Of a stretch of DNA of 32,000 nucleotides, positions 15,044 to 29,203 are shown piece by piece; position 1 is the first letter of the stretch, and each line of letters opens with the position of its first letter. The notes under the pieces are model-generated. The model saw nothing but the letters and a program-made list of their open reading frames with translations. It did no database searches and had not been told where the DNA came from. This stretch comes from Candidatus Baldrarchaeota archaeon (GTDB lineage Archaea > Asgardarchaeota > Baldrarchaeia > Baldrarchaeales > DXJG01): contig JAEOSG010000002.1 of assembly GCA_016840485.1 (NCBI GenBank), positions 50,368 through 82,367 on the forward strand, written 5' to 3'. The translations under genes and the position numbers were made by a program.

Positions 15044-15301
15044 ATCGATCTATGTACTATCACAAAAGCAATCAAAATAAATAAGAACATTACGGTTAGA
15101 GTTAAAAACAACAAATTTTCTTATAAAACGGAAAACAAGAATTACAGCATGTTATTTAAATAACAAACGCCACTACTCTATACATCTTCGATTGCTAGTT
15201 CAACAAACAAAAGCAACGTGCAAAATCAAATTAAAGCAATTTCCACCCCAGCAATAAGATAAATAAATTAGGAATTGAATGTGAAAAACTAGCTAATTAA
15301 C

Positions 15302-15457
15302 GGTGCGGCATCCTTCCGTGTTCGGAATGGGAACGGGTATTTCCCTCCGCACTATGGCCGCCTGCCGAAGCAGGCAGCTTCCCAGTTTCCCATCCCCTCG
15401 CGGAGGATAGTACTCCTGGGAACGTGCGGAGGCTTGACTTTCACGGGATGCCGCACC
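15302..15457 (-). rRNA. Circularly permuted 5S rRNA gene (3' half - UUCG - 5' half) enclosed by a bulge-helix-bulge processing stem. The predicted excised unit is 15315..15439 (125 nt).
   Basis: The minus strand contains GCAGGCGGCCAUAGUGCGGAGGGAAAUACCCGUUCCCAUUCCGAACACGGAAG (the 5S 5' half). This lies downstream of GUCAAGCCUCCGCACGUUCCCAGGAGUACUAUCCUCCGCGAGGGGAUGGGAAACUGGGAAGCUGCCUGC (the 5S 3' half). The flanks GGUGCGGCAUCC/GGAUGCCGCACC are perfectly complementary. Confidence 0.85.
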
Positions 15458-15478
15458 ACTTCTATCACAATCACCAAC

Positions 15479-15488
15479 CATATAAAAA
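15479..15488 (-). promoter_or_regulatory. TATA box (minus strand TTTTTATATG) upstream of the permuted 5S unit
   Basis: It is a box A-like element about 20-25 nt upstream of the first nucleotide of the flanking helix. A T5 run follows the unit on the minus strand (about 15283-15287). Confidence 0.5.
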
Positions 15489-15709: not shown

Positions 15710-15882
15710 GGGGCCGTAGCCTAGCCAGGTGAGGGATTAGCACGAAACTAGGCCCCCTTAGGGGCGACGGGCTCCAGAAGCCCATACGACGGGTTTGTTG
15801 ACCGAAGTGGGATGAAGAACTTCTGGAGCGGTGAATTGAAGAAACCCGTTGGTCGAGGGTTCAAATCCCTCCGGCCCCACCA
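15710..15882 (+). tRNA. tRNA-Trp(CCA) with two introns: D-arm about 15733-15761 and canonical 37/38 at 15778-15843. CCA is encoded.
   Basis: Hand-folded. Acceptor GGGGCCG/CGGCCCC, D stem GCCU/GGGC, anticodon stem ACGGG/CCCGU, loop CUCCAGA, T arm GAGGG-UUCAAAU-CCCUC, A73. The exons sum to 78 nt. Confidence 0.8.
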
Positions 15883-16312: not shown

Positions 16313-16479
16313 GCCGGGGTAGCTCAGCCTGGTTGGAGCGCCGGACTAAAAACACACTACCAAGGGCGAAACTCATAGGGTACAGAAATTTATAGTCCCT
16401 TCCTGTGACATCCGGAGGTCCCGGGTTCGAATTGCCTAGACTTGCTGGTCTGGGCACGAAAATCCCGGCCCCGGCACCA
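16313..16479 (+). tRNA. tRNA, most likely elongator Met(CAT), with three introns: about 16348-16373, 16378-16409 and a T-loop intron about 16433-16463. CCA is encoded.
   Basis: Acceptor GCCGGGG/CCCCGGC, D arm GCUC-AGCCUGGUUG-GAGC, anticodon stem CCGGA/UCCGG, T arm CCGGG-UUCGAAU-CCCGG. Only the assembly CU+CAUA+A gives a legal anticodon loop (CUCAUAA). The exons sum to exactly 78 nt. Confidence 0.65.
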
Positions 16480-18075: not shown

Positions 18076-18202
18076 GCCGCCGTAGCTCAGCCGGTAGAGG
18101 AAAACAAGCGCCGAAAGCGGCGGACTTGTAAATTTGAGGCTATAGAGCCTTGTAAGTCGAGAGATCCGCTGGTCGCGGGTTCAAATCCCGCCGGCGGCTC
18201 CA
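18076..18202 (+). tRNA. tRNA-Thr(TGT) with two introns: D-arm 18099-18116 and 37/38 at 18131-18163. CCA is encoded.
   Basis: Acceptor GCCGCCG/CGGCGGC, U73, anticodon stem GCGGA/UCCGC, loop CUUGUAA, T arm GCGGG-UUCAAAU-CCCGC. The exons sum to 76 nt. Confidence 0.8.
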
Positions 18203-18300
18203 CTAATTTGTTTTTGTAGTTTTTGATGTTGTTTTATATGGTGGTTGCTATTGGGTGGAATTCGAGTTTGTGTTTGTATTTTTTGTTTAGTGTTTTTATT
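18203..18300 (+). repeat. T/G-rich low-complexity tract immediately 3' of tRNA-Thr(TGT)
   Basis: It has almost no A or C on the plus strand and contains TTTTTGATGTTGTTTTAT. Related tracts lie at 25268 and 29206. Confidence 0.6.
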
Positions 18301-19135
18301 GCGTTTTTGTTGGGTAGTGTTTTTCTTTTACAAATTCTATGCCTTCTACTTCTCTTAGATATTTTTCAAAGATATCCCAGACGTTGGTGAACCATTTTAA
18401 GTTGTTTTTCTTGGCGTAGTTGTATAGATTTTCTTCGACGTACTCATGAAATATTTTTGCGATGGCTAATTCCTTTTCTGAAAGTTCTTCTTCCCAAGGG
18501 AGGGGTGAACCGTGGGCTTCTGCGTCAAAATTTACGAAGTCTATCCAGTTTGCTTCGCTTCTTAACCATTTTTCAACAACATATAAAGATACTTTGTAAA
18601 AGAAGAGTTGTTCTCCTTCTAGCTTTACAACTTTTATTCTTTCGCTGTATTGCTTGAGTTCTTCATGTATGTCGAACATGTGCTCGGATGAAATTGTGGA
18701 TATTACGCGTCCCTTAACTATCTTTTCAATATTATCTCTGTGTTTTTTGTCTTCTAGCATTTTTTTGCGCATTTTCTGAAAGTTATCCAGCGCCTTTTTG
18801 CAGCATTTGCTTTCTGGCTTCTTATTGAAAATAATCGTGTTGTAACAGCACTCTTTTGGACATTTCCAACCTGCAATATTTCTTTCTTCTTCGGTGTAGG
18901 GTTCTTCGTTGTAATCTGTTGGATATTCTATGCCTATAAGGGATCTTTTGCAGTCTCTCTCATCAAGGTGTAAAGTGAAGGTTATTTTGGGTTCTATGGT
19001 GTCTATTAAACCTTTTTTCATCATTTCTTCGATAATATATATCATTATGATGTAAATTGTATCAATAATATAGTAGTGGTTTATTTCTTGTATCATGTGG
19101 AACATCCATTCTTCGTTTTCGGGAAGTTTCGTCAT
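18296..19135 (-). CDS. Hypothetical protein with no recognisable family (cytosolic, Cys cluster CPKECC...CCKK). Last gene of the orphan operon.
   Basis: It is an intact 279-aa ORF with GGGGG 7 nt upstream of the ATG. It is tightly packed behind the upstream gene. Confidence 0.6.
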   Translation of the reverse strand: MTKLPENEEWMFHMIQEINHYYIIDTIYIIMIYIIEEMMKKGLIDTIEPKITFTLHLDERDCKRSLIGIEYPTDYNEEPYTEEERNIAGWKCPKECCYNTIIFNKKPESKCCKKALDNFQKMRKKMLEDKKHRDNIEKIVKGRVISTISSEHMFDIHEELKQYSERIKVVKLEGEQLFFYKVSLYVVEKWLRSEANWIDFVNFDAEAHGSPLPWEEELSEKELAIAKIFHEYVEENLYNYAKKNNLKWFTNVWDIFEKYLREVEGIEFVKEKHYPTKTQ

Positions 19136-19148
19136 AACATGCCCCCTA

Positions 19149-20894
19149 TTATATTATTTGTTGCAGTATTTGTGTTGTAATGGTTCCTATGGCTATTCCT
19201 AGTAGGTATGTTGTGGGACCTCCGTTGGCGAATATTTGTATTGATGTGTCGATGGTTGGCCATATGATTTTTTCAAAGATCCATGCGTTGTTGCCGAATA
19301 GGGTTCTGGCGATGTATGGGATGGCTTGAGCGGCAAGAATCACGTTGTTTCCCTCTATTAGCATTTGTAGGAGCATGCCGTTTAGGATGCTTCCCAGAAA
19401 TGTTTGTAGTAAGACTTTTACCATGTCCTTTAAGCTCCCGTCATTGTTTTTGTTTGTTAGTAGGTTTGAGAAGTCTTGGTAGTCGTCGATGTTCATTAGA
19501 GCGTAGCTTATTAATGCTAGGATTACGTAAACTTTAATTTTCCCTTTTCCAGCTTTTAGAGTTCCTTTGAAGTTTTCTGGGAGTTTAACGTATACTTCCA
19601 TTCCTATCCTCGTTCCAAGGAAGCACGTTGATGCAAATAGAGCTATGCAAAGTACGCTTGTCTTGGACAAATCCGGTTTACTCAACGTCTTTTGGAGTAA
19701 GCTTTTGAATGTGCCGCTGACTTTTCCCTTTGTACATGTGTATTTTTCCCAGTTTATTTTCTTGGATTTGCCTTCAATTATTTTCTGGGTTATTTCGTTT
19801 GGTAGTTTTCTGTTTTCGTCGAAGTGCCATGAAAATGTTTCGTCGTCGATGAGGGCTAATGTTGCAGCTCTCATTACGTGTCCCCAAACGTCTCCTTCGT
19901 TGAGAACATTTTTTGCTGGTGGTATTGATAGGTATTCCCAACAAACTTTCCTAAGATTATCTTTGGCTATCAATCCTTCTAAAATAGTTCCATAAATTTT
20001 TTCTTTAGCTGTGACTTTAAATTCGTGTAAATTATATTTTGCTTCGTCTAGAGCTACAAAATTTATTGCTTCACTTTTTTCACGCCACTTCGAAACTCCT
20101 GTAAATCTTTTTTCTCGTCCTAAATAATCATTTTCCTCTATGAACTTTGTGTAGGAGTTATGTAGTAATTTGTAGTTTTCGTTTAGTATTTTTGTTAATT
20201 CGAGTTTGATGTTTTCAATTTTTGATGCTTCTGTATCTAGTCCTTCGCTTCTTAGTCTCTCTGCGGTGTCTTCTAGTATCCATTTGGTGGCAACTAATCC
20301 CAAGTGTGGTTCGCGGAGGAAAGGTGGGTCTGCTGAAATAATTACTCCCCGAATCTTTCCTTCAAATATAGTTGGATGCGCATCGAAAGTTGTTTGTGAA
20401 ATTAATTCGAAAAGCGAGGGGTCTGTTCCTTTGGATTCTCTATATAATTTTCTAATTTCATTCCAAACTTTAGCTTGTTCTAACACTAAATGCTTGACTT
20501 TACCTAGATGTTCTTTCCATTTTTCGTTTAATTTACATTTATCAAATCTGTATAATGCGTTTTTTACTCGATCTCCTTGTCTTCCTTTTACTATTGATGC
20601 CACTTTTCCATAATTGTCTTTAAATTGTCTTTCTCTGGGGTTTACTCCTATTAATATTCTGAAGCCCGTGAGCGTGTAGTCCCTTGCTTCAACTCTGTAT
20701 TCTACGAAATCGCTTATCAAGATAGATTTCTCATATCGTTTGTTTGTGAAATTTTCTTCGAACTTCTTTTTTCCATCTTGAAATTTCTCAATAGGATTTT
20801 CTTCAGGGTCCGTGAACTGATTTAGGTAGCCCTCCCAAATGACTGCAAAGACGACATGTTCTCCATCTATAAATGTGTGAATTGTTTGAACCAT
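19149..20894 (-). CDS. Hypothetical large protein: soluble N-terminal part of about 400 aa plus a C-terminal region of about 170 aa with several predicted transmembrane helices
   Basis: It is an intact 581-aa ORF. Its ATG lies 2 nt after the upstream stop (TAAGGATG). Hydrophobic stretches include VLCIALFASTCFLG, VYVILALISYALM and LLGIAIGTITTQIL. Confidence 0.65.
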   Translation of the reverse strand: MVQTIHTFIDGEHVVFAVIWEGYLNQFTDPEENPIEKFQDGKKKFEENFTNKRYEKSILISDFVEYRVEARDYTLTGFRILIGVNPRERQFKDNYGKVASIVKGRQGDRVKNALYRFDKCKLNEKWKEHLGKVKHLVLEQAKVWNEIRKLYRESKGTDPSLFELISQTTFDAHPTIFEGKIRGVIISADPPFLREPHLGLVATKWILEDTAERLRSEGLDTEASKIENIKLELTKILNENYKLLHNSYTKFIEENDYLGREKRFTGVSKWREKSEAINFVALDEAKYNLHEFKVTAKEKIYGTILEGLIAKDNLRKVCWEYLSIPPAKNVLNEGDVWGHVMRAATLALIDDETFSWHFDENRKLPNEITQKIIEGKSKKINWEKYTCTKGKVSGTFKSLLQKTLSKPDLSKTSVLCIALFASTCFLGTRIGMEVYVKLPENFKGTLKAGKGKIKVYVILALISYALMNIDDYQDFSNLLTNKNNDGSLKDMVKVLLQTFLGSILNGMLLQMLIEGNNVILAAQAIPYIARTLFGNNAWIFEKIIWPTIDTSIQIFANGGPTTYLLGIAIGTITTQILQQII

Positions 20895-20896
20895 CC

Positions 20897-21658
20897 TTAT
20901 TTCGCCAAAAATCTATAATAATGACTGGTAACTTTACCCTTACTTACAGTTTTTCTGTAATCCATGATTATCATCGAAATTTTTCCGTTTTTATCAAATT
21001 TAACAAGATCCTTACATCTGATATCCTTATTACTAACTATTTTATCGATTTTATCGACCAGATTTCTGGTTATCAACGCGTCATACCAGCTTTCCCTTGT
21101 CCAACCTTCCCGTACAACTAAGTATATATCGTCAGTTCTTACAAAGTTCATCTTTTTAACCAGATCAGAACTTCCGAGAACTTCGTATAGATATTTGAAA
21201 ACCTTCTCCTGATCCCTACTTGTAAAAGAACCGTAAGCCATTATGTTGGTCTTTGTTTTATCTCTCCCGGCCCATGGCCATTTGATTATACCTGATAGTA
21301 TTCCTGATATTAGCCAGGCATTGTATATTTTTATCCAGGATTTTAACTGGATTTCTAAGGGTTGTAAACCGATTATAAAGTTCAGTATTTTATTTACTGT
21401 TTTCATGAAGAGGTTCACTATTTTTTTGGGTATTCTTCCTTCAGCTACAAGTTCAGATAAAAGATAAACCAAGCCTAAATAACTGTCAACTGAAAAATTC
21501 ACAAAGTTAAACCAAACTTCCTCAAAAATACCCTTTATCTTATCCCAAACGTTGTTAAAGGGCTTAACTAAAGTATCTGTAAGCTTTTTAACAGCAGACT
21601 TAAAAGTTACCTCACTATAAGCAACAGCATTATCTAAGAACCTTACACTTGGATCCAC
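20897..21658 (-). CDS. Hypothetical membrane-associated protein
   Basis: It is an intact 253-aa ORF with a GTG start and hydrophobic segments YLGLVYLLSELVA and AWLISGILSGIIKWPW. No family is recognised. Confidence 0.55.
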   Translation of the reverse strand: MDPSVRFLDNAVAYSEVTFKSAVKKLTDTLVKPFNNVWDKIKGIFEEVWFNFVNFSVDSYLGLVYLLSELVAEGRIPKKIVNLFMKTVNKILNFIIGLQPLEIQLKSWIKIYNAWLISGILSGIIKWPWAGRDKTKTNIMAYGSFTSRDQEKVFKYLYEVLGSSDLVKKMNFVRTDDIYLVVREGWTRESWYDALITRNLVDKIDKIVSNKDIRCKDLVKFDKNGKISMIIMDYRKTVSKGKVTSHYYRFLAK

Positions 21659-21682
21659 CCAACCATCTAAAATCTTCTTAAC

Positions 21683-22735
21683 TCAACTCAAATCTACACC
21701 TAAAACTTTCGACAATACCCCTAGAAGTTTATCCATTGTCCAAGAGAAATATTTCAATATTCCTCGTGCACACTTCGCTATCGCAGCAATTATTAAAGCA
21801 GCGACAAGCCCGCTAAGAGCTTTACCAGCCTTAACCATAGAATAAGCTACAGAAACAATCGTCTTCAAATATCGCTTAGCAAAACTTATTACAAAGTTTG
21901 CACCGCGAAAAACGGTGTTATCTAGGGTTGTTTTTACTGGGCTTCGTATCCACTTGTTCCACGGGGCATTAAATGTTTCATCAATCCACCTATAAACCGC
22001 AGATTTAATATCATAATAATATTTGTAAATTGTATCGAAAATTTCATCGACAAGCAAAATTACCTTTCTAACTTCAACAACACTAGCCTCAATCTTCCCC
22101 GTAACACCATCTCCAAAACATTTCCTCTCGTTTTTTGGTGGTTTCCAAAATCTTCCAGCGACAACAGGTATACCCCTAGATTCATATTTATGTTTGAAAC
22201 TTATTTTTGAACCTCTGGCACCGAATGTTTCACGTTTTGACACGACTTCGTAACTTACATGTTTAACCCTTCTCTTTACATAGCTTTTCGGAGGATCTCC
22301 GCGATGAATCACAACCTTAACATTTTTCCTATGAAGTGTGACCTTATAAGCCCGCCTAGAAACAACTCTCCTCTTAAATCTAGATCTTAATCCCAGAGTT
22401 ACATTGTCATTGCCATCGTAAATTTCATAGGGGTTAATTGTCGAATTTGTTTCCTCAATTTTATCTACAACTCTAAATTCTATATATCCTTCTACTATTT
22501 CGCCAGTAAAATTATCGATGATCTCAACGGGTAGATATACATGTTCCTCAATCAACTCGTAGGTTCCAGCTGATAAAACTGATTGAACAGAAGCAATATA
22601 ATCTCCATTTAAATAAGTTTCTCCCTCATAAGTTAATATTTGTGCATCGCTAAATTTTTCGAAGAAAGCAACCACGGAACTATTACCGTAAATTTCTTTT
22701 TTCCCTACCCATGTTACAAAATGGCAAATAAACAA
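21683..22735 (-). CDS. Hypothetical protein, third frame-segment of a probably single F-E-D gene. It has a very basic middle region and a hydrophobic C-terminal anchor.
   Basis: The ORF opens only 2 codons after an in-frame TAA. It has a TTG start and no RBS. It overlaps the end of the upstream segment across an A6 run. C-terminus: LSGLVAALIIAAIAKCA. Confidence 0.55.
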   Translation of the reverse strand: MFICHFVTWVGKKEIYGNSSVVAFFEKFSDAQILTYEGETYLNGDYIASVQSVLSAGTYELIEEHVYLPVEIIDNFTGEIVEGYIEFRVVDKIEETNSTINPYEIYDGNDNVTLGLRSRFKRRVVSRRAYKVTLHRKNVKVVIHRGDPPKSYVKRRVKHVSYEVVSKRETFGARGSKISFKHKYESRGIPVVAGRFWKPPKNERKCFGDGVTGKIEASVVEVRKVILLVDEIFDTIYKYYYDIKSAVYRWIDETFNAPWNKWIRSPVKTTLDNTVFRGANFVISFAKRYLKTIVSVAYSMVKAGKALSGLVAALIIAAIAKCARGILKYFSWTMDKLLGVLSKVLGVDLS

Positions 22736-23267
22736 ATTTTAGTCTGTTTAGATACTCTATTCTTAATTTTTTTGCTAAGTGTTCTAATGTTTTTCCGTTA
22801 ACAACAGCTACGTTGTTTTCTCCATGCATTAGCATACCGTGTATCTGCAAAGTTTCATTTAGAACTCCATGAGCCAAAATTACTAGGTAAACTTCACTTG
22901 CTCTTCGATCCTCCTCAGCTAACCACAACAAATACACCAGGTTCATCGCAGTACAATAATTTCCTGTTAGAATTATTGATGCATCTCCAACCTCCTCAGC
23001 AAACCTCAAAATCTCATCAACAACAATCCGCGTACGCTCATCACAAAACAACGATTCATTCAATATCTCGATATCAGTAGATAAAAACGCTAAAACAAGC
23101 ACACCTGTATTATTAATATTCTCCACAGATTTCAGAAAAATTTCTTTGGTATCTTCACTCAGCCTACCGGTTGCATCTATTCCAGTAACCCAGTCTTCCC
23201 TTATGCTAGAGTTTAATACAATACCCTGACCAATGTTTGAGGCTTTACTAGTCGGAGAAATCACCAC
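22683..23267 (-). CDS. Hypothetical protein, second frame-segment of the F-E-D gene
   Basis: It has a GTG start and no RBS, and overlaps both neighbours. It contains VYLVILAHG ... FVYLPFCNMG (a His-Gly / Cys pair, each after a hydrophobic strand). Confidence 0.5.
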   Translation of the reverse strand: MVISPTSKASNIGQGIVLNSSIREDWVTGIDATGRLSEDTKEIFLKSVENINNTGVLVLAFLSTDIEILNESLFCDERTRIVVDEILRFAEEVGDASIILTGNYCTAMNLVYLLWLAEEDRRASEVYLVILAHGVLNETLQIHGMLMHGENNVAVVNGKTLEHLAKKLRIEYLNRLKFVYLPFCNMGREKRNLR

Positions 23268-23484
23268 CCTGCTGACCAGTTTTTTCTTCCCAAACAGTTA
23301 TTGGTGAACCATTAGTAAACCCACGGAAATGCGGGTCAAAACTATCAATGTAGATTTCTGGCTTTTTAACTCTAGTTAATTCACCTAAGATCGTACCATC
23401 GTTTGTTGCTATTAGTCTACTAGTTGAAACCTCCAATAATAAAACTATTAAAATCAATATCCCCGCTACAAGCTTATTTTTCAC
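23248..23484 (-). CDS. Hypothetical secreted or membrane N-terminal segment (signal peptide or TM) of the F-E-D gene
   Basis: A strong RBS GGAGGGUGA lies 3 nt upstream of GTG 23484. The N-terminus is MKNKLVAGILILIVLLL. Confidence 0.6.
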   Translation of the reverse strand: MKNKLVAGILILIVLLLEVSTSRLIATNDGTILGELTRVKKPEIYIDSFDPHFRGFTNGSPITVWEEKTGQQGGDFSD

Positions 23485-23503
23485 ATTTCACCCTCCTAAT
23501 TCC

Positions 23504-23514
23504 TAAATAAAAAT
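23504..23514 (-). promoter_or_regulatory. Candidate TATA box (minus strand ATTTTTATTTA) for the orphan operon
   Basis: It is an AT-rich box A-like element about 20 nt upstream of the GGAGGGUGA RBS of the first ORF. Confidence 0.4.
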
Positions 23515-23980
23515 CGGCGGCAAGGTTTAAATAGCCCGATGTGAACAGGTTCAAAAACATGACAAAATACTTCATAACCTAAAATAACAACCGATTAAAA
23601 AATTAAAATACAAAAATATGTATCTTTTAACTAAATGTACCTCATGTCCTAATCTCGATCTTTTTTAATTATTTGACGAATGTCGATAGCGAGGACAAAA
23701 TTTAGGTATAACACTGTTAAGATGATACTTTCTTTAGCAAATTTTTATAAATCACTTATAAGTACGGTACCTAAAAACCACTGATTGTGGCATGTTTCTA
23801 GCTATTTACAAAAATAAATTTTTAATAATAAGATTAGGAAAATTATTATCTAAATTAACTCAATGTCTTTTTACAAAATATTCAATGTCTTGTTAAATTT
23901 TCGACTGCTTTTAACTTTTTAAATACTTTTCAGCAAAAATTATCGATAAGTTCTAATGTTCTTTCATAAGGGAACTTATT

Positions 23981-24172
23981 TCATTTCTTTTTCTCTATGA
24001 TTAGTCTTTTTCCGTGTATGTCTATTTTTACTATGACTTCTTCTCTATGTTTGAAGGGAAAAGCCGTATCGTTTGCAACTTGGCTTGGAATGTAAATCCA
24101 TGTCTTTTTGTATTTTTTGTTTTTTGTTTTTGTTTCTCTGACGATGATGCGTCCTAGGCCTTCTTTAGCCAT
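23981..24172 (-). CDS. Small basic AbrB/SpoVT-like DNA-binding protein (candidate regulator)
   Basis: It has 63 aa. WIYIPSQVANDTAFPFKHREEVIVKIDIHGKRLIIEK resembles the swapped-hairpin pattern (xIPxxhxxxh.h..Gd.v.h....g..hhh.k). The N-terminal half is Lys-rich. Confidence 0.5.
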   Translation of the reverse strand: MAKEGLGRIIVRETKTKNKKYKKTWIYIPSQVANDTAFPFKHREEVIVKIDIHGKRLIIEKKK

Positions 24173-24365
24173 TATTTCATTCCTCTTGGTAAAAATGTAT
24201 ATTCATTTTATTGGATAACCAATTTAGTTCTTTTTGAAGACCAAAAGGGTCTACCACTTTGGTGAACTAACATTTATAAGTTCTTCCCACAATAATTGGT
24301 ATACCAACAATGAGCAAGATGCCCAGCAATCATTTAAACCCTAAAAATGACGGAGGATAAAGAAA

Positions 24366-24623
24366 TTGAGTGAAATGAAACTGAAATGCCGCTTTTATTT
24401 GGAGAAAAAACATAGATGCCTGATTAGTGGAGCCATATGTGCTTTTCCGGTTTCTTTTGGGAAAGAAAAATACTGTGATACGTATAGATTTGATTTCGAA
24501 AAGTGGTTCGAAGACATTGTCTTGGAATTGGCAAGAAAAAATAGTATTTTGGAATACTACGACGAGTCATCATGTTGCTTTTCGCGTGATGATGCAACTG
24601 ATGGGCACAGAAATAGATCGTAG
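24366..24623 (+). CDS. Hypothetical small Cys-rich protein (uncertain; may continue in the overlapping 24427-24711 frame)
   Basis: Two overlapping plus-strand ORFs cover 24366-24711. Neither has a recognisable family. Confidence 0.3.
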   Translation: MSEMKLKCRFYLEKKHRCLISGAICAFPVSFGKEKYCDTYRFDFEKWFEDIVLELARKNSILEYYDESSCCFSRDDATDGHRNRS

Positions 24624-24934
24624 AGTAGATTATACCTATGAGGACATTCACAGAATTGTGGAGAAAAACTGGAGAGAATTAGTTAAAACTAGTATAGTCC
24701 ATAAGATCTAAAAATGGCGTAGTGCATGCTTGACATTTTCTTCTTACTTCATATAATGTGATTTCTTTCTTATTTGTGGGTTGTAAGGGTGTGATGAGGT
24801 ATGTTCTTTATGTGTTGTTATTTTTAGGTTTGATTTATTAATAAATCCATAAGTCTTTTATTGCTTTTTACTAAAGCTATGTTAGAAAACTATTTAAAGC
24901 AGATATTGTTCACCCTTTATGCAGTTACTATCTA

Positions 24935-28911: not shown

Positions 28912-29099
28912 AACAAACACCAAATCGATTGCTGCTGATAACCTCAACGAACATCCCTTATACTAACACACTTATCAAAACACCCCAAATTAAAATTATG
29001 TCACTCTGATAAACAAATAGAACCAAGCTAATAAACAAACTTGATGGGACGTAGCAAAATCGTATCTTTAAGCAAAACAAAATGTATAATGAAGTAGAG

Positions 29100-29203
29100 T
29101 GGAGCCGCCGGCGGGATTTGAACCCGCGACCCCGTCCTTACCAAGGACGTGCTTTGGCCCGTTTTTATTTCTGCTTTGTCTGACCAGGCTGAGCTACGGC
29201 GGC
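29100..29203 (-). tRNA. tRNA-Thr(GGT) with one D-arm intron (29153-29178). CCA is encoded.
   Basis: The minus strand reads GCCGCCG-UA-GCUC-AGCCUGGUCA-GA[26 nt]GC-A-CGUCC-UUGGUAA-GGACG-GGGUC-GCGGG-UUCAAAU-CCCGC-CGGCGGC-U-CCA. Confidence 0.8.

What the first reader, a model, noticed from the sequence alone, without database searches (positions are those of the whole stretch)
15302..15457. Circularly permuted 5S rRNA gene inside a bulge-helix-bulge motif that would restore a canonical 5S as a 125-nt circle
The minus strand reads 5'-GGUGCGGCAUCC CGUG AAA GUCAAGCCUCCGCACGUUCCCAGGAGUACUAUCCUCCGCGAGGGGAUGGGAAACUGGGAAGCUGCCUGC UUCG GCAGGCGGCCAUAGUGCGGAGGGAAAUACCCGUUCCCAUUCCGAACACG GAA GGAUGCCGCACC-3'.

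The block after UUCG is an unmistakable 5S 5' half. It has the helix I strand GCAGGCGGC, helix II GUGCGGAGG, and the helix III/loop C motif CCCGUUCCCAUUCCGAACACGG. The block before UUCG is the 3' half. It has the helix II return strand CCUCCGCAC, helix V UUCCCAG/CUGGGAA, the loop E GAGUA region, helix IV AUCCUC-CGCGA-GGGGAU, and the helix I return strand GCUGCCUGC. So the gene order is 3' half then 5' half, with the natural ends fused by a UUCG tetraloop on a 9-bp helix I.

The new ends fall in the helix III region. They are held by a perfect 12-bp helix, then a 3-nt bulge (GAA), a 4-bp helix (CGUG/CACG) and a second 3-nt bulge (AAA) on the other strand. This is the geometry recognised by the archaeal splicing endonuclease, although the inner helix is weak, giving a relaxed BHB form.

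Apply the tRNA-intron rule of cleavage after the second bulge nucleotide on each strand, then ligate. This excises 15439..15315 and creates the junction ...AACACGGA|AGUCAAGCC.... That is exactly the conserved GGAAGU(U/C)AAGCC of normal 5S rRNA.

BHB excision and circularisation is established for archaeal 16S/23S precursors and tRNA introns. Permuted genes repaired this way are, as far as I recall, known for tRNAs (Cyanidioschyzon) and for Thermoproteus SRP RNA. I am not aware of a natural permuted 5S rRNA gene in an archaeon. It is open whether the mature species stays circular or is reopened at the UUCG cap.
Basis: partly seen in the sequence, partly recalled or inferred. Interest (0 to 1): 0.92.

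Follow-up and report, generated by a model that had tools for sequence, protein, structure and literature searches.

The report
Permuted 5S rRNA gene, splice-repaired
This archaeon's 5S ribosomal RNA gene is written back-to-front (3' half before 5' half) inside a conserved tRNA-intron-type splicing motif that should cut it out and join its ends into a normal, probably circular, 5S RNA; the same arrangement occurs in several Asgard archaeal lineages and probably explains why standard annotation finds no 5S gene there.

Summary
Window 15457..15302 (minus strand) holds the 3' half of a 5S rRNA, a UUCG cap, then the 5' half. A 12-bp (extendable to 15-bp) leader/trailer helix, a 4-bp helix and two 3-nt bulges enclose it. 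Cutting by the tRNA-intron rule and ligating gives a 125-nt circle with junction CACGGA|AGUCAAGCC, the canonical 5S sequence.

It is not an artefact. The same locus occurs in at least 8 independent assemblies. Homologous permuted genes occur in genomes labelled Baldr-, Odin-, Jord- and Heimdallarchaeota and in unassigned archaeal MAGs. The leader/trailer helix has unrelated sequences in different lineages but always pairs (99% of cells against 60% in shuffles; 10 of 11 pairs covary). Two splice registers, one base apart, both restore CGGAAGUY. Re-linearised sequences align collinearly with canonical archaeal 5S, with compensatory changes in helices II-V.

Rfam's curated threshold misses these genes. 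A published paper reports that no 5S gene could be predicted in closed Heimdallarchaeum genomes.

No paper describing this was found. I rate it a new variant of a known kind (BHB repair of permuted RNA genes, known for tRNA and Thermoproteus SRP RNA). RNA-level proof, and whether the RNA stays circular, remain open.

The parts
15480..15486 (-). TATA-like box TTTATAT, 26 nt upstream of the first base of the extended leader helix (inferred archaeal promoter)
   Evidence: Sequence. The same TTTATAT box lies 26-32 nt upstream of the helix in the Baldr, Odin, Jord and S9B3 homologues. Its function is inferred, not shown.
15446..15457 (-). Leader: 5' strand of the outer helix, GGUGCGGCAUCC (pairing can extend to 15460)
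   Evidence: In the structural alignment, 100% of cells in the 7 pairs nearest the bulge are paired and all 7 pairs have changes on both sides.
15442..15445 (-). 5' strand of the central 4-bp helix of the BHB (CGUG)
   Evidence: 97.5% of cells are paired across lineages and 3 of 4 pairs covary.
15439..15441 (-). 5' bulge AAA. Predicted cleavage is between 15440 and 15439, and 15439 becomes the first base of the excised RNA
   Evidence: The cleavage position comes from the established tRNA-intron rule and is inferred.
15370..15439 (-). 3' half of the 5S rRNA: AGUCAAGCC, helix II 3' strand, helix V, loop E GAGUA region, helix IV with its loop, and helix I 3' strand GCUGCCUGC
   Evidence: Rfam half-match to model positions about 56-120. 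Collinear alignment with canonical 5S after re-permutation. Compensatory pairs in helices II, IV and V.
15366..15369 (-). UUCG tetraloop that caps helix I where a normal 5S has its 5' and 3' ends
   Evidence: Cap loops in the homologues are UUCG, UACG, CUCG and CACG, with AAUUA in one lineage. The 7 cap-helix pairs are 100% paired and all covary.
15315..15365 (-). 5' half of the 5S rRNA: helix I 5' strand GCAGGCGGC, loop A CAUAG, helix II 5' strand, and helix III/loop C CCCGUUCCCAUUCCGAACACGGA
   Evidence: Rfam half-match to model positions 1 to about 55. Alignment and consensus fold.
15317..15320 (-). 3' strand of the central 4-bp helix (CACG). The same bases form part of helix III in the mature fold, so the BHB and helix III are alternative pairings
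   Evidence: The BHB-constrained fold is only 3.4 kcal/mol above the MFE.
15314..15316 (-). 3' bulge GAA. Predicted cleavage is between 15315 and 15314, and 15315 is the last base of the excised RNA
   Evidence: The cleavage position is inferred from the tRNA-intron rule.
15302..15313 (-). Trailer: 3' strand of the outer helix, GGAUGCCGCACC (pairing can extend to 15299)
15284..15288 (-). T-run (TTTTT) 11 nt after the extended helix (inferred archaeal terminator)
   Evidence: T-runs follow the helix within 1-31 nt in most homologues. Its function is inferred.

Best explanation
This is the functional 5S rRNA gene of a Baldrarchaeia-like Asgard archaeon, encoded in circularly permuted order.

Proposed pathway:
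1. A short independent transcript starts a few bases before 15457-15460 and ends at the T-run near 15284.
2. Its leader and trailer pair into a 12-15 bp helix that stacks on a 4-bp helix. This presents two 3-nt bulges on opposite strands, a relaxed bulge-helix-bulge motif.
3. The tRNA-splicing endonuclease (EndA) cuts after the second base of each bulge.
4. The RtcB-type ligase joins the 2',3'-cyclic phosphate and 5'-OH ends of the inner fragment. This creates the junction GGA|AGU and a 125-nt covalently closed RNA.
5. The RNA refolds. The CACG strand leaves the BHB and forms helix III. The result is a canonical three-way-junction 5S rRNA whose helix I is closed by a UUCG tetraloop.
6. It most likely enters the 50S subunit as a circle.

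Shown here: the gene anatomy, its conservation and covariation, the in-silico junction, and the canonical fold.

Inferred: the transcription limits, EndA/RtcB action, circular persistence, and ribosome incorporation.
For: Anatomy:
- The anatomy is exact.
- The re-linearised 121-nt sequence folds into helix I (9 bp), helix II, helix V and helix IV.
- It aligns end to end with canonical Desulfurococcales and Halorussus 5S genes.
- RNAalifold gives 27 consensus pairs, 20 of them with compensatory changes. The body is therefore under selection for 5S structure.

Distribution:
- Homologous permuted genes with the same break point occur in genomes labelled Baldrarchaeota, Odinarchaeota/Odinarchaeia (two), Jordarchaeia (three) and Heimdallarchaeota (two).
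- They also occur in 'archaeon Dive96_bin2.176' (four copies) and in four unassigned lineages.

BHB conservation:
- Outer helices are 7-15 bp with unrelated sequences: GGUGCGGCAUCC, GGUGGCAUCG, GGUAGUAUCG, GGGCGCCAUGA, CUGGGCACCGUGG, ACCGCCGUGA, GAUCCUG, GAUCCCCCAAGAA, GACCCUAGGAA.
- 99.1% of cells are paired against 60.4% in shuffles (0 of 500 shuffles reach the observed value). 10 of 11 pairs change on both sides. Sliding the partner by 1-3 columns gives 29-38% paired.
- Cognate flanks give 7-15 contiguous bp. Non-cognate flanks give a mean of 1.06.
- There are two registers. One has bulges AAA/GAA or AAA/GAU around CGUG/CACG. The other has bulges AAG/AAA around CCGY or CUGG paired with GCGG, CCGG or ACGG. 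Both give CGGAAGUY after the cut-after-base-2 rule.
- The BHB conformer is only 0.7-5.9 kcal/mol above the MFE.

Transcription unit: a TATA-like box lies 26-32 nt upstream and a T-run lies downstream.

Cap: the loops are YNCG-type tetraloops in all but one lineage. That argues for a permanent structural cap.

Support from outside the sequence:
- Linking the native 5S ends with a 4-nt connector is compatible with functional E. coli ribosomes (PMC7283268).
- The organism relies heavily on BHB splicing: three multi-intron tRNA genes lie within 3 kb.
- Rfam at its curated threshold finds no 5S at these loci but finds the canonical controls.
- The locus is identical or near-identical in at least 8 independent assemblies.
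Against: - There are no RNA data. Cleavage, ligation and circularity are inferred.
- The motif lacks a helix on the inner side of the 5' bulge (0-2 bp). It is a relaxed BHB/BHL form that strict homotetramer- or homodimer-type EndA enzymes reportedly handle poorly. The EndA type of this organism was not determined.
- One lineage (S9B3/Ga0180301) has a G/A mismatch in the 4-bp helix.
- The central helix competes with helix III, and the plain MFE does not form it.
- Whole genomes could not be scanned, so a second collinear 5S gene elsewhere is not excluded.
- A recent survey states that archaeal 5S processing, unlike that of 16S and 23S, does not involve excision and circularisation (PMC12918454).
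Confidence: 0.8

Rival explanations
1. Same pathway up to the circle, but the circle is only an intermediate. It is re-opened at or near the UUCG cap, which gives a conventional linear 5S rRNA with normal helix I ends. Permuted tRNA genes work this way: the circle is re-linearised to restore normal ends.
For: Permuted tRNA precursors are circularised and then linearised (summary in PMC7758197). Archaeal circular 16S and 23S precursors are classically thought to be re-linearised (PMC12918454). One lineage (SRP239594) has a non-tetraloop AAUUA cap.
Against: The connector is only 4 nt. It is a thermostable YNCG-type tetraloop in all but one lineage, closed by a fully paired and covarying helix. 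That looks like selection for a permanent cap rather than for a nuclease site. No spacer or RNase P/Z-type processing signal is present. The Thermoproteus permuted SRP RNA stays circular. Circular 23S is reported within mature archaeal ribosomes (PMC12918454). A 4-nt connector on helix I is tolerated in E. coli ribosomes.
Confidence: 0.1
2. A linear permuted 5S rRNA. Either the precursor is not processed at all, and the leader/trailer helix stays as an extra arm emerging from the loop B/helix III region. Or it is cut by EndA but not ligated, so the mature molecule has its ends at GGA/AGU and is held together by helices II and III. This would resemble the structurally permuted mitochondrial 5S rRNAs.
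For: Naturally permuted linear 5S rRNAs exist in organelles (PMC4267664). A conserved terminal helix alone could serve simply to hold the two ends together.
Against: A simple clamp does not explain the invariant 3-nt + 4-bp + 3-nt geometry. It also does not explain why two registers, one base apart, both reconstitute exactly CGGAAGUY when cut by the tRNA-intron rule. The 4-bp helix uses bases that must form helix III in a working 5S, so an unprocessed precursor could not adopt the conserved fold. EndA products in archaea are generally ligated and circularised (established knowledge).
Confidence: 0.06
3. A non-functional relic or an artefact: a rearranged 5S pseudogene, or a mis-assembly of a tandem 5S array. 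The real 5S would be encoded elsewhere.
For: Whole genomes were not scanned. Tandem 5S arrays do produce matches to the search pattern in Clostridia.
Against: The arrangement is identical in independent assemblies from ENA, Logan, JGI and NCBI. It is conserved across lineages whose flanking DUF1512 protein (encoded by the neighbouring gene) is only 57% identical. All helices show compensatory changes, and the promoter and terminator are conserved. Neither flank carries the missing halves that a tandem array would show. No canonical-order ORF was found in 5.8 billion proteins.
Confidence: 0.02

Closest known systems
Circularly permuted SRP RNA gene of Thermoproteus (Plagens et al. 2015, as summarised in PMC7758197)
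   Same: The gene is rearranged at the DNA level. A short leader and trailer form a BHB. Processing by the tRNA-splicing machinery is proposed to give a covalently closed, functional, universally conserved ribonucleoprotein RNA. This is the closest mechanistic analogue.
   Different: The RNA is different (5S rRNA, a ribosome component) and so is the clade (several Asgard lineages rather than two Thermoproteus species).
Circularly permuted tRNA genes (Cyanidioschyzon merolae and other algae; one archaeon) (Soma 2014, cited in PMC7758197)
   Same: [quoted passage not shown] A BHB-like motif forms at the new ends, and circularisation is by the tRNA-splicing enzymes.
   Different: tRNA circles are re-linearised at an intervening sequence to regenerate the acceptor ends. 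Here the connector is a 4-nt tetraloop with no obvious processing signal, so the circle is probably the end product.
BHB-dependent excision and circularisation of archaeal 16S/23S pre-rRNA, circular 23S in mature ribosomes, and the circularly permuted 23S rRNA of Pyrococcus/Thermococcus
   Same: EndA-type BHB processing of ribosomal RNA that gives circular species (PMC12918454, PMC7758197, bioRxiv 10.64898/2026.03.23.713588).
   Different: Those genes are collinear, and any permutation arises at the RNA level. The 5S rRNA is explicitly described as not following this route. Here the permutation is in the DNA and splicing is needed to create a contiguous conserved sequence.
Low-abundance circular 5S species in Sulfolobus solfataricus and Pyrococcus abyssi
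   Same: Circular forms of the 5S rRNA have been seen in archaea (mentioned).
   Different: Those come from collinear genes without a BHB. They join the natural ends and are rare intermediates or by-products. They are not a required repair of a permuted gene.
Permuted mitochondrial 5S rRNAs (Valach et al. 2014, PMC4267664; Rfam mtPerm-5S)
   Same: A naturally permuted 5S in which the usual ends are closed and new ends lie elsewhere.
   Different: They are organellar, there is no BHB or ligation, and the molecule stays linear and structurally permuted. The Asgard genes are predicted to regenerate an unpermuted sequence.
Engineered cp5S rRNA in E. coli (Huang et al. 2020, PMC7283268)
   Same: The native 5' and 3' ends of the 5S are linked by a 4-nt connector, and the ribosomes are functional.
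   Different: It is artificial, bacterial, opened in loop C or D, and fused into the 23S rRNA.

Membership tests
5S rRNA (Rfam RF00001) | Three-way junction with helices I-V, loop A (CAUAG), loop C (CCCAUNCCGAAC), GGAAGUYAAGC, and the loop E region | tested here: met
   The re-permuted sequence folds into helices I, II, V and IV. It aligns collinearly with two canonical archaeal 5S genes, with these motifs invariant. The consensus fold has 20 of 27 pairs with compensatory changes.
5S rRNA (Rfam RF00001) | Score at or above Rfam's gathering threshold (38 bits) on the genomic sequence | tested here: not met
   24.5 and 23.7 bits for the two halves. There is no call at gathering in the window or at the permuted homologues, apart from a marginal 38.4-bit mis-placed call in L020. 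This is what a permuted gene is expected to give.
5S rRNA (Rfam RF00001) | Score of the re-permuted (spliced) sequence against the Rfam model | not testable with these tools
   The Rfam search accepts only the window and fetched loci, not an edited sequence.
5S rRNA (Rfam RF00001) | Presence in the 50S subunit | not testable with these tools
   This needs ribosome purification or cryo-EM.
Bulge-helix-bulge (hBHBh') substrate of the archaeal splicing endonuclease | Two 3-nt bulges on opposite strands separated by a 4-bp helix | tested here: met
   Window: AAA / CGUG-CACG / GAA. The feature is conserved in all 12 precursor variants compared. The central helix is 46 of 48 cells paired and 3 of 4 pairs covary.
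Bulge-helix-bulge (hBHBh') substrate of the archaeal splicing endonuclease | Helix flanking the motif on the outer side | tested here: met
   12-15 bp in the window and 7-15 bp elsewhere. 100% of cells are paired and 7 of 7 pairs covary.
Bulge-helix-bulge (hBHBh') substrate of the archaeal splicing endonuclease | Helix flanking the motif on the inner side (h') | tested here: not met
   Only U-A and C-G are possible after the 5' bulge in register 1, and none in register 2 (read). The motif is therefore a relaxed hBH-loop form.
Bulge-helix-bulge (hBHBh') substrate of the archaeal splicing endonuclease | Actual cleavage by EndA and ligation by RtcB | not testable with these tools
   An enzyme assay or RNA sequencing is needed. 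An EndA gene (PF02778+PF01974) is present on locus L071 next to another permuted 5S, but none lies in the window.
Permuted RNA genes repaired by BHB circularisation (Thermoproteus SRP RNA, permuted tRNAs) | 3' half upstream of 5' half within one transcription unit | tested here: met
   The order of the halves is shown. A single TATA-like box upstream and a T-run downstream, with only 4 nt between the halves, are shown. The transcription limits themselves are inferred.
Permuted RNA genes repaired by BHB circularisation (Thermoproteus SRP RNA, permuted tRNAs) | Splicing at the BHB regenerates the conserved contiguous sequence | tested here: met
   The junction is CGGA|AGUY or CGGAA|GUY in every lineage. 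Canonical genes read CGGAAGUY.
Permuted RNA genes repaired by BHB circularisation (Thermoproteus SRP RNA, permuted tRNAs) | No collinear copy of the gene in the genome | tested here: inconclusive
   None was found in the window, in 20 related loci, or as junction-spanning ORFs. Closed Heimdallarchaeum genomes have no predictable 5S. Complete genomes of the carriers could not be scanned.
Permuted RNA genes repaired by BHB circularisation (Thermoproteus SRP RNA, permuted tRNAs) | Detection of the circular RNA | not testable with these tools
   No transcriptome data are accessible.

The most novel reading that the evidence does not exclude
In several Asgard lineages (Baldr-, Odin-, Jord- and Heimdallarchaeia, plus unassigned relatives), the only 5S rRNA genes are circularly permuted. 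The ribosomal 5S rRNA is then a covalently closed circle made by the tRNA-splicing endonuclease and ligase. That would make tRNA-splicing enzymes essential for building the large ribosomal subunit. It would also explain the 'missing' 5S genes in closed Asgard genomes.
Probability: 0.6. Interest if true: 0.9.

Novelty: new variant of a known kind. Interest (0 to 1): 0.85.

Why it matters
The 5S rRNA is universal. Its gene is treated as trivially recognisable, and it is one of the three rRNAs required by the MIMAG 'high-quality' genome standard.

If this reading is right:
1. A whole group of Asgard archaea, the closest archaeal relatives of eukaryotes, encode 5S in a form that standard tools (Rfam/Infernal, RNAmmer, barrnap) miss or mis-place. 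[quoted passage not shown]
2. Ribosome biogenesis in these organisms would depend on the tRNA-splicing endonuclease and ligase for a third class of essential RNA.
3. The mature 5S would probably be a natural circular rRNA. It would extend recent findings of circular 23S rRNA and would be directly testable by RNase R sequencing or cryo-EM.
4. A shared break point with a one-base register shift gives a clean system for studying how permuted RNA genes arise and how BHB motifs drift while the product is preserved.

Tried and rejected
- **Assembly artefact: rejected.** The locus is identical in a Logan assembly of SRR14699971, in ENA ERZ27248308, and in four further samples.
- **Tandem canonical 5S arrays: rejected for the archaeal loci.** The genome-collection pattern scan found many arrays in Clostridia and Bacillus, recognisable by CGG directly before AAGT and AAGT after CGG. 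The archaeal permuted loci lack both.
- **Chance left anchors: set aside.** Hits upstream of canonical 5S genes (L029, L043, L046, L050, and the Gastranaerophilales and cyanobacterial hits) were set aside.
- **Scoring the spliced sequence with Rfam: not possible.** I used alignment to canonical genes and RNAalifold instead.
- **Junction-spanning ORFs: weak negative.** I searched 5.8 billion predicted proteins for an ORF that crosses the predicted junction. Such an ORF would reveal a collinear gene or an RNA-derived contig. Only the genomic-order ORFs P0241 and P0242 were found.
- **Taxonomic placement of the L065/L071 lineage through its methionine aminopeptidase: unresolved.** The nearest named hit is a 'Crenarchaeota archaeon' MAG at 48% identity. 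A 56%-identical relative (L070) carries Arf/Ras-family genes but has no 5S at the syntenic site. Whether the trait extends outside Asgard is therefore undecided. The 'Thermoproteota archaeon S9B3_HD70' label sits on a Jord-like 5S sequence.
- **The metagenome scan gave only 5 loci**.
- **The sigma-70 promoter/terminator scanner was not used,** because it does not cover archaeal promoters. The TATA box and T-runs were located by script.
- **Literature:** eight literature searches in all; the seven aimed at prior reports found no paper on a permuted or BHB-processed archaeal 5S rRNA. The library lacks most subscription-journal papers, so prior description cannot be excluded.
Full report
**1. The observation**

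Its parts are:
- Outer helix: GGUGCGGCAUCC (15457-15446) pairs perfectly with GGAUGCCGCACC (15313-15302). Pairing can extend to 15 bp, 15460-15299.
- Central helix: CGUG (15445-15442) pairs with CACG (15320-15317).
- Bulges: AAA (15441-15439) sits on the 5' strand and GAA (15316-15314) on the 3' strand.
- Body: between the bulges lie AGUCAAGCC...GCUGCCUGC, then UUCG (15369-15366), then GCAGGCGGCCAUAG...CCGAACACGGA.

Rfam at its curated threshold reports no 5S anywhere in the 32-kb window. In E-value mode it reports two sub-threshold 5S matches. The first (24.5 bits) aligns well only to model positions 1 to about 55 at 15365..15312. The second (23.7 bits) aligns well only to positions about 56-120 at about 15440..15369. 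So the gene order is 3' half, cap, 5' half.

The 162-nt precursor folds at -88.7 kcal/mol, z = -7.16, and no shuffle folds as well.

Cutting after the second base of each bulge excises 15439..15315 (125 nt) with junction AACACGGA|AGUCAAGCC. Opened at the cap, the 121-nt sequence folds into helix I (9 bp), helix II, helix V and helix IV.

The bulge-after-helix order on both strands is the same as in a canonical pre-tRNA. There, positions 32-35 form the 4-bp helix, 36-37 plus the first intron base form the 5' bulge, and the last two intron bases plus 38 form the 3' bulge. That comparison rests on established knowledge. The geometry is therefore the genuine one and not a mirror image.

**2. It is real, and the organism is an Asgard archaeon**

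The neighbouring DUF1512 protein gene led to a Logan assembly of SRR14699971 whose 5S region is identical over 401 aligned bases. It also led to an ENA contig that is 96% identical over 10.8 kb and has an identical precursor.

A spurious 62-aa ORF that gene callers place across the precursor led to four more samples: SRR25925499, ERZ27248307, JGI 3300021493 and JGI 3300005099.

The window is syntenic with a contig of 'Candidatus Baldrarchaeota archaeon MAG_95' (PGK gene 87.6% nucleotide identity) and with a Guaymas Basin contig. The surrounding genes are ordinary chromosomal housekeeping genes: PolB, eRF1-like, primase, TYW2, PGK and methylmalonyl-CoA mutase.

**3. Relatives**

A contig of a Ca. 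Odinarchaeia MAG has a DUF1512 protein only 57% identical to the window's. It carries a 75%-identical copy in the same permuted order.

One scan of 185,579 species genomes used a pattern that requires AAGUYAAGC 80-110 nt upstream of CYCAUNYCGAACNCGG. It returned 55 loci. The bacterial ones are tandem canonical 5S arrays or chance matches.

The archaeal ones are permuted genes in:
- Baldrarchaeota;
- Odinarchaeota;
- three Jordarchaeia genomes;
- two Heimdallarchaeota genomes;
- 'archaeon Dive96_bin2.176', with four copies, all at contig ends;
- 'Thermoproteota archaeon S9B3_HD70', which has a Jord-like sequence;
- an uncultured archaeon.

A metagenome scan added a further lineage (L065). A synteny walk added its relative L071.

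Rfam at gathering calls none of these, apart from one marginal, mis-placed 38.4-bit call. It does call the canonical controls in the same batch at 57-94 bits.

**4. Comparative anatomy**

Sixteen loci were tabulated. Twelve precursor variants were compared pair by pair, and ten of them went into the formal pair count. In every complete precursor the flanks form:
- an outer helix of 7-15 bp that directly abuts a 4-bp helix;
- a 3-nt bulge on each strand.

The outer helices have unrelated sequences between lineages. On a structural alignment of the 7 + 4 pairs:
- 99.1% of cells form standard pairs, against 60.4% in shuffles (0 of 500 shuffles reach this);
- 10 of 11 pairs have changes on both sides;
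- sliding the 3' partner by 1-3 columns drops pairing to 29-38%.

Cognate flanks give 7-15 contiguous pairs. Flanks from different lineages give 1.06 on average.

Two registers exist.
- Baldr, Odin and Jord use CGUG/CACG with bulges AAA and GAA (or GAU). The cuts are AA|A and GA|A.
- Heimdall, L049, S9B3 and L065 use CCGY or CUGG on the 5' strand, paired with GCGG, CCGG or ACGG. The bulges are AAG and AAA, and the cuts are AA|G and AA|A.

Both registers give CGGAAGUY, the sequence found contiguously in canonical genes. This is hard to explain unless the tRNA-intron rule is what selection sees.

The BHB conformer costs only 0.7-5.9 kcal/mol over the MFE.

The motif lacks a helix on the inner side of the 5' bulge. 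Its 3' strand CACG is also the helix III strand of the mature fold. So the precursor must refold after ligation. Both points are inferences.

**5. The body is a 5S under selection**

Eleven re-linearised sequences align end to end with canonical Desulfurococcales and Halorussus 5S genes. Loop A, loop C, GGAAGUYAAGC and the loop E region are invariant. RNAalifold recovers helices II, III, V and IV. Of 27 pairs, 20 carry compensatory changes.

The helix I cap is fully paired: 84 of 84 cells, with 7 of 7 pairs covarying. Its loop is UUCG, UACG, CUCG or CACG in all but one lineage.

**6. Transcription unit**

A TTTATAT box lies 26-32 nt upstream of the first helix base in the Baldr, Odin, Jord and S9B3 lineages. 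T-runs follow the helix. This fits an archaeal promoter that fires at the foot of the helix, followed by an oligo-T terminator. That reading is an inference.

**7. Mechanism and rivals**

The best-supported reading is: transcription, BHB formation, EndA cleavage, RtcB ligation, a 125-nt circle, refolding into a canonical 5S with a tetraloop-capped helix I, and incorporation into the 50S subunit.

I favour a persistently circular product for four reasons:
- The connector is a conserved thermostable tetraloop with no processing signal.
- The permuted Thermoproteus SRP RNA stays circular.
- Circular 23S rRNA is reported in mature archaeal ribosomes.
- A 4-nt connector across the 5S ends is compatible with functional E. 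coli ribosomes.

Re-opening at the cap, a linear unligated or unprocessed permuted 5S, and a pseudogene or artefact are the rivals. Reasons are given in the rival section.

The organism clearly relies on BHB splicing. Three tRNA genes within 3 kb carry two or more inserts, including inserts in the D-loop and T-loop.

**8. Is it the only 5S?**

This is not settled.
- No collinear copy is in the window or in 20 related loci.
- No ORF spanning a collinear junction exists among 5.8 billion proteins. This is a weak negative.
- Wu et al. [quoted passage not shown] That is what a permuted sole copy would produce.
- Several permuted copies sit at contig ends, and one MAG has four. This suggests multi-copy genes.

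**9. Known or new?**

Searches of the held literature found:
- permuted mitochondrial 5S;
- permuted tRNA and SRP RNA genes;
- circular and permuted 23S rRNA;
- rare circular 5S by-products.

No report of a permuted or BHB-processed archaeal 5S gene was found. A 2026 survey states that 5S, unlike 16S and 23S, is not processed by excision and circularisation.

The library misses most subscription journals, so prior description cannot be excluded.

I class this as a new variant of a known kind. The mechanism is that of the Thermoproteus SRP RNA and the permuted tRNAs. Here it applies to a ribosomal RNA and is spread across several Asgard lineages.

**10. Verdict**

Confidence in the splice-repair mechanism is 0.8. 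The probability that permuted genes are the sole source and that the mature RNA is circular is about 0.6. Interest is 0.85.

Noticed in passing
window 15710-15882 (+): Probable tRNA gene (GGGGCCG...CGGCCCC-A-CCA, with encoded CCA) carrying about 100 nt of extra sequence, presumably several introns. ARAGORN misses it. Rfam sees it only as a sub-threshold tmRNA-clan hit (27.6 bits).
   Followed up: partly
window 16313-16479 (+): Probable tRNA gene (GCCGGGG...CCCCGGC-A-CCA). It has one insert after the anticodon-loop region and a second insert inside the T-loop (GGTTCGAAT | ~30 nt | TCCCGG). No tool detected it.
   Followed up: no
window 18076-18199 (+): tRNA (Rfam 47.5 bits) with a 20-nt insert in the D-loop and a 35-nt insert at the anticodon loop. 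ARAGORN misses it. Together with the two genes above, it shows heavy use of non-canonical introns next to the permuted 5S.
   Followed up: partly
window 18205-24884, and 29098-29131 (-): About 6.7 kb immediately downstream of the tRNA at 18076-18199 is absent from the syntenic Baldrarchaeota contig L047 (217 nt there). L004 has 1.8 kb at that place. The six ORFs of this stretch that were scanned against Pfam (18296-23267, minus strand) have no hit. This may be an integrated mobile element. A 34-nt exact copy of the tRNA 3' end also lies inverted at 29098-29131.
   Followed up: partly
L076 24-217 (JGI 3300005099): A strain-level variant of the window's precursor has a 4-nt duplication (CTGC) in the helix I 3' strand next to the UUCG cap. 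That would bulge helix I. It may be real variation or a sequencing or assembly slip.
   Followed up: no
L071 1676-2230 and 3663-3809 (GCA_027016435.1): Another permuted 5S (outer helix GACCCUAGGAA/UUCCUAGGGUC, cap CUCG) lies 1.4 kb from a tRNA-splicing endonuclease gene (PF02778+PF01974, 184 aa). The proximity is probably coincidental, but it gives an EndA sequence from a carrier lineage.
   Followed up: no
L010, L011, L012, L020, L024, L045/L064, L047: Many permuted 5S copies sit at or within a few bases of contig ends, and one MAG (Dive96_bin2.176) has four. This suggests the gene is multi-copy and breaks short-read assemblies.
   Followed up: partly
L020 77-196: Rfam at the gathering threshold calls a full-length 5S (38.4 bits; threshold 38). 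The call starts at the 5' half and runs into the trailer and downstream DNA. It shows how annotation pipelines can mis-place these genes.
   Followed up: yes
window 15293-15481 (-): Gene callers place a spurious 62-aa ORF across the whole precursor (cluster P0241 in JGI, ENA and Logan data). It is a handy exact-match handle for finding the locus in protein-indexed collections. The 125-nt circle read three times round has only one stop codon.
   Followed up: yes
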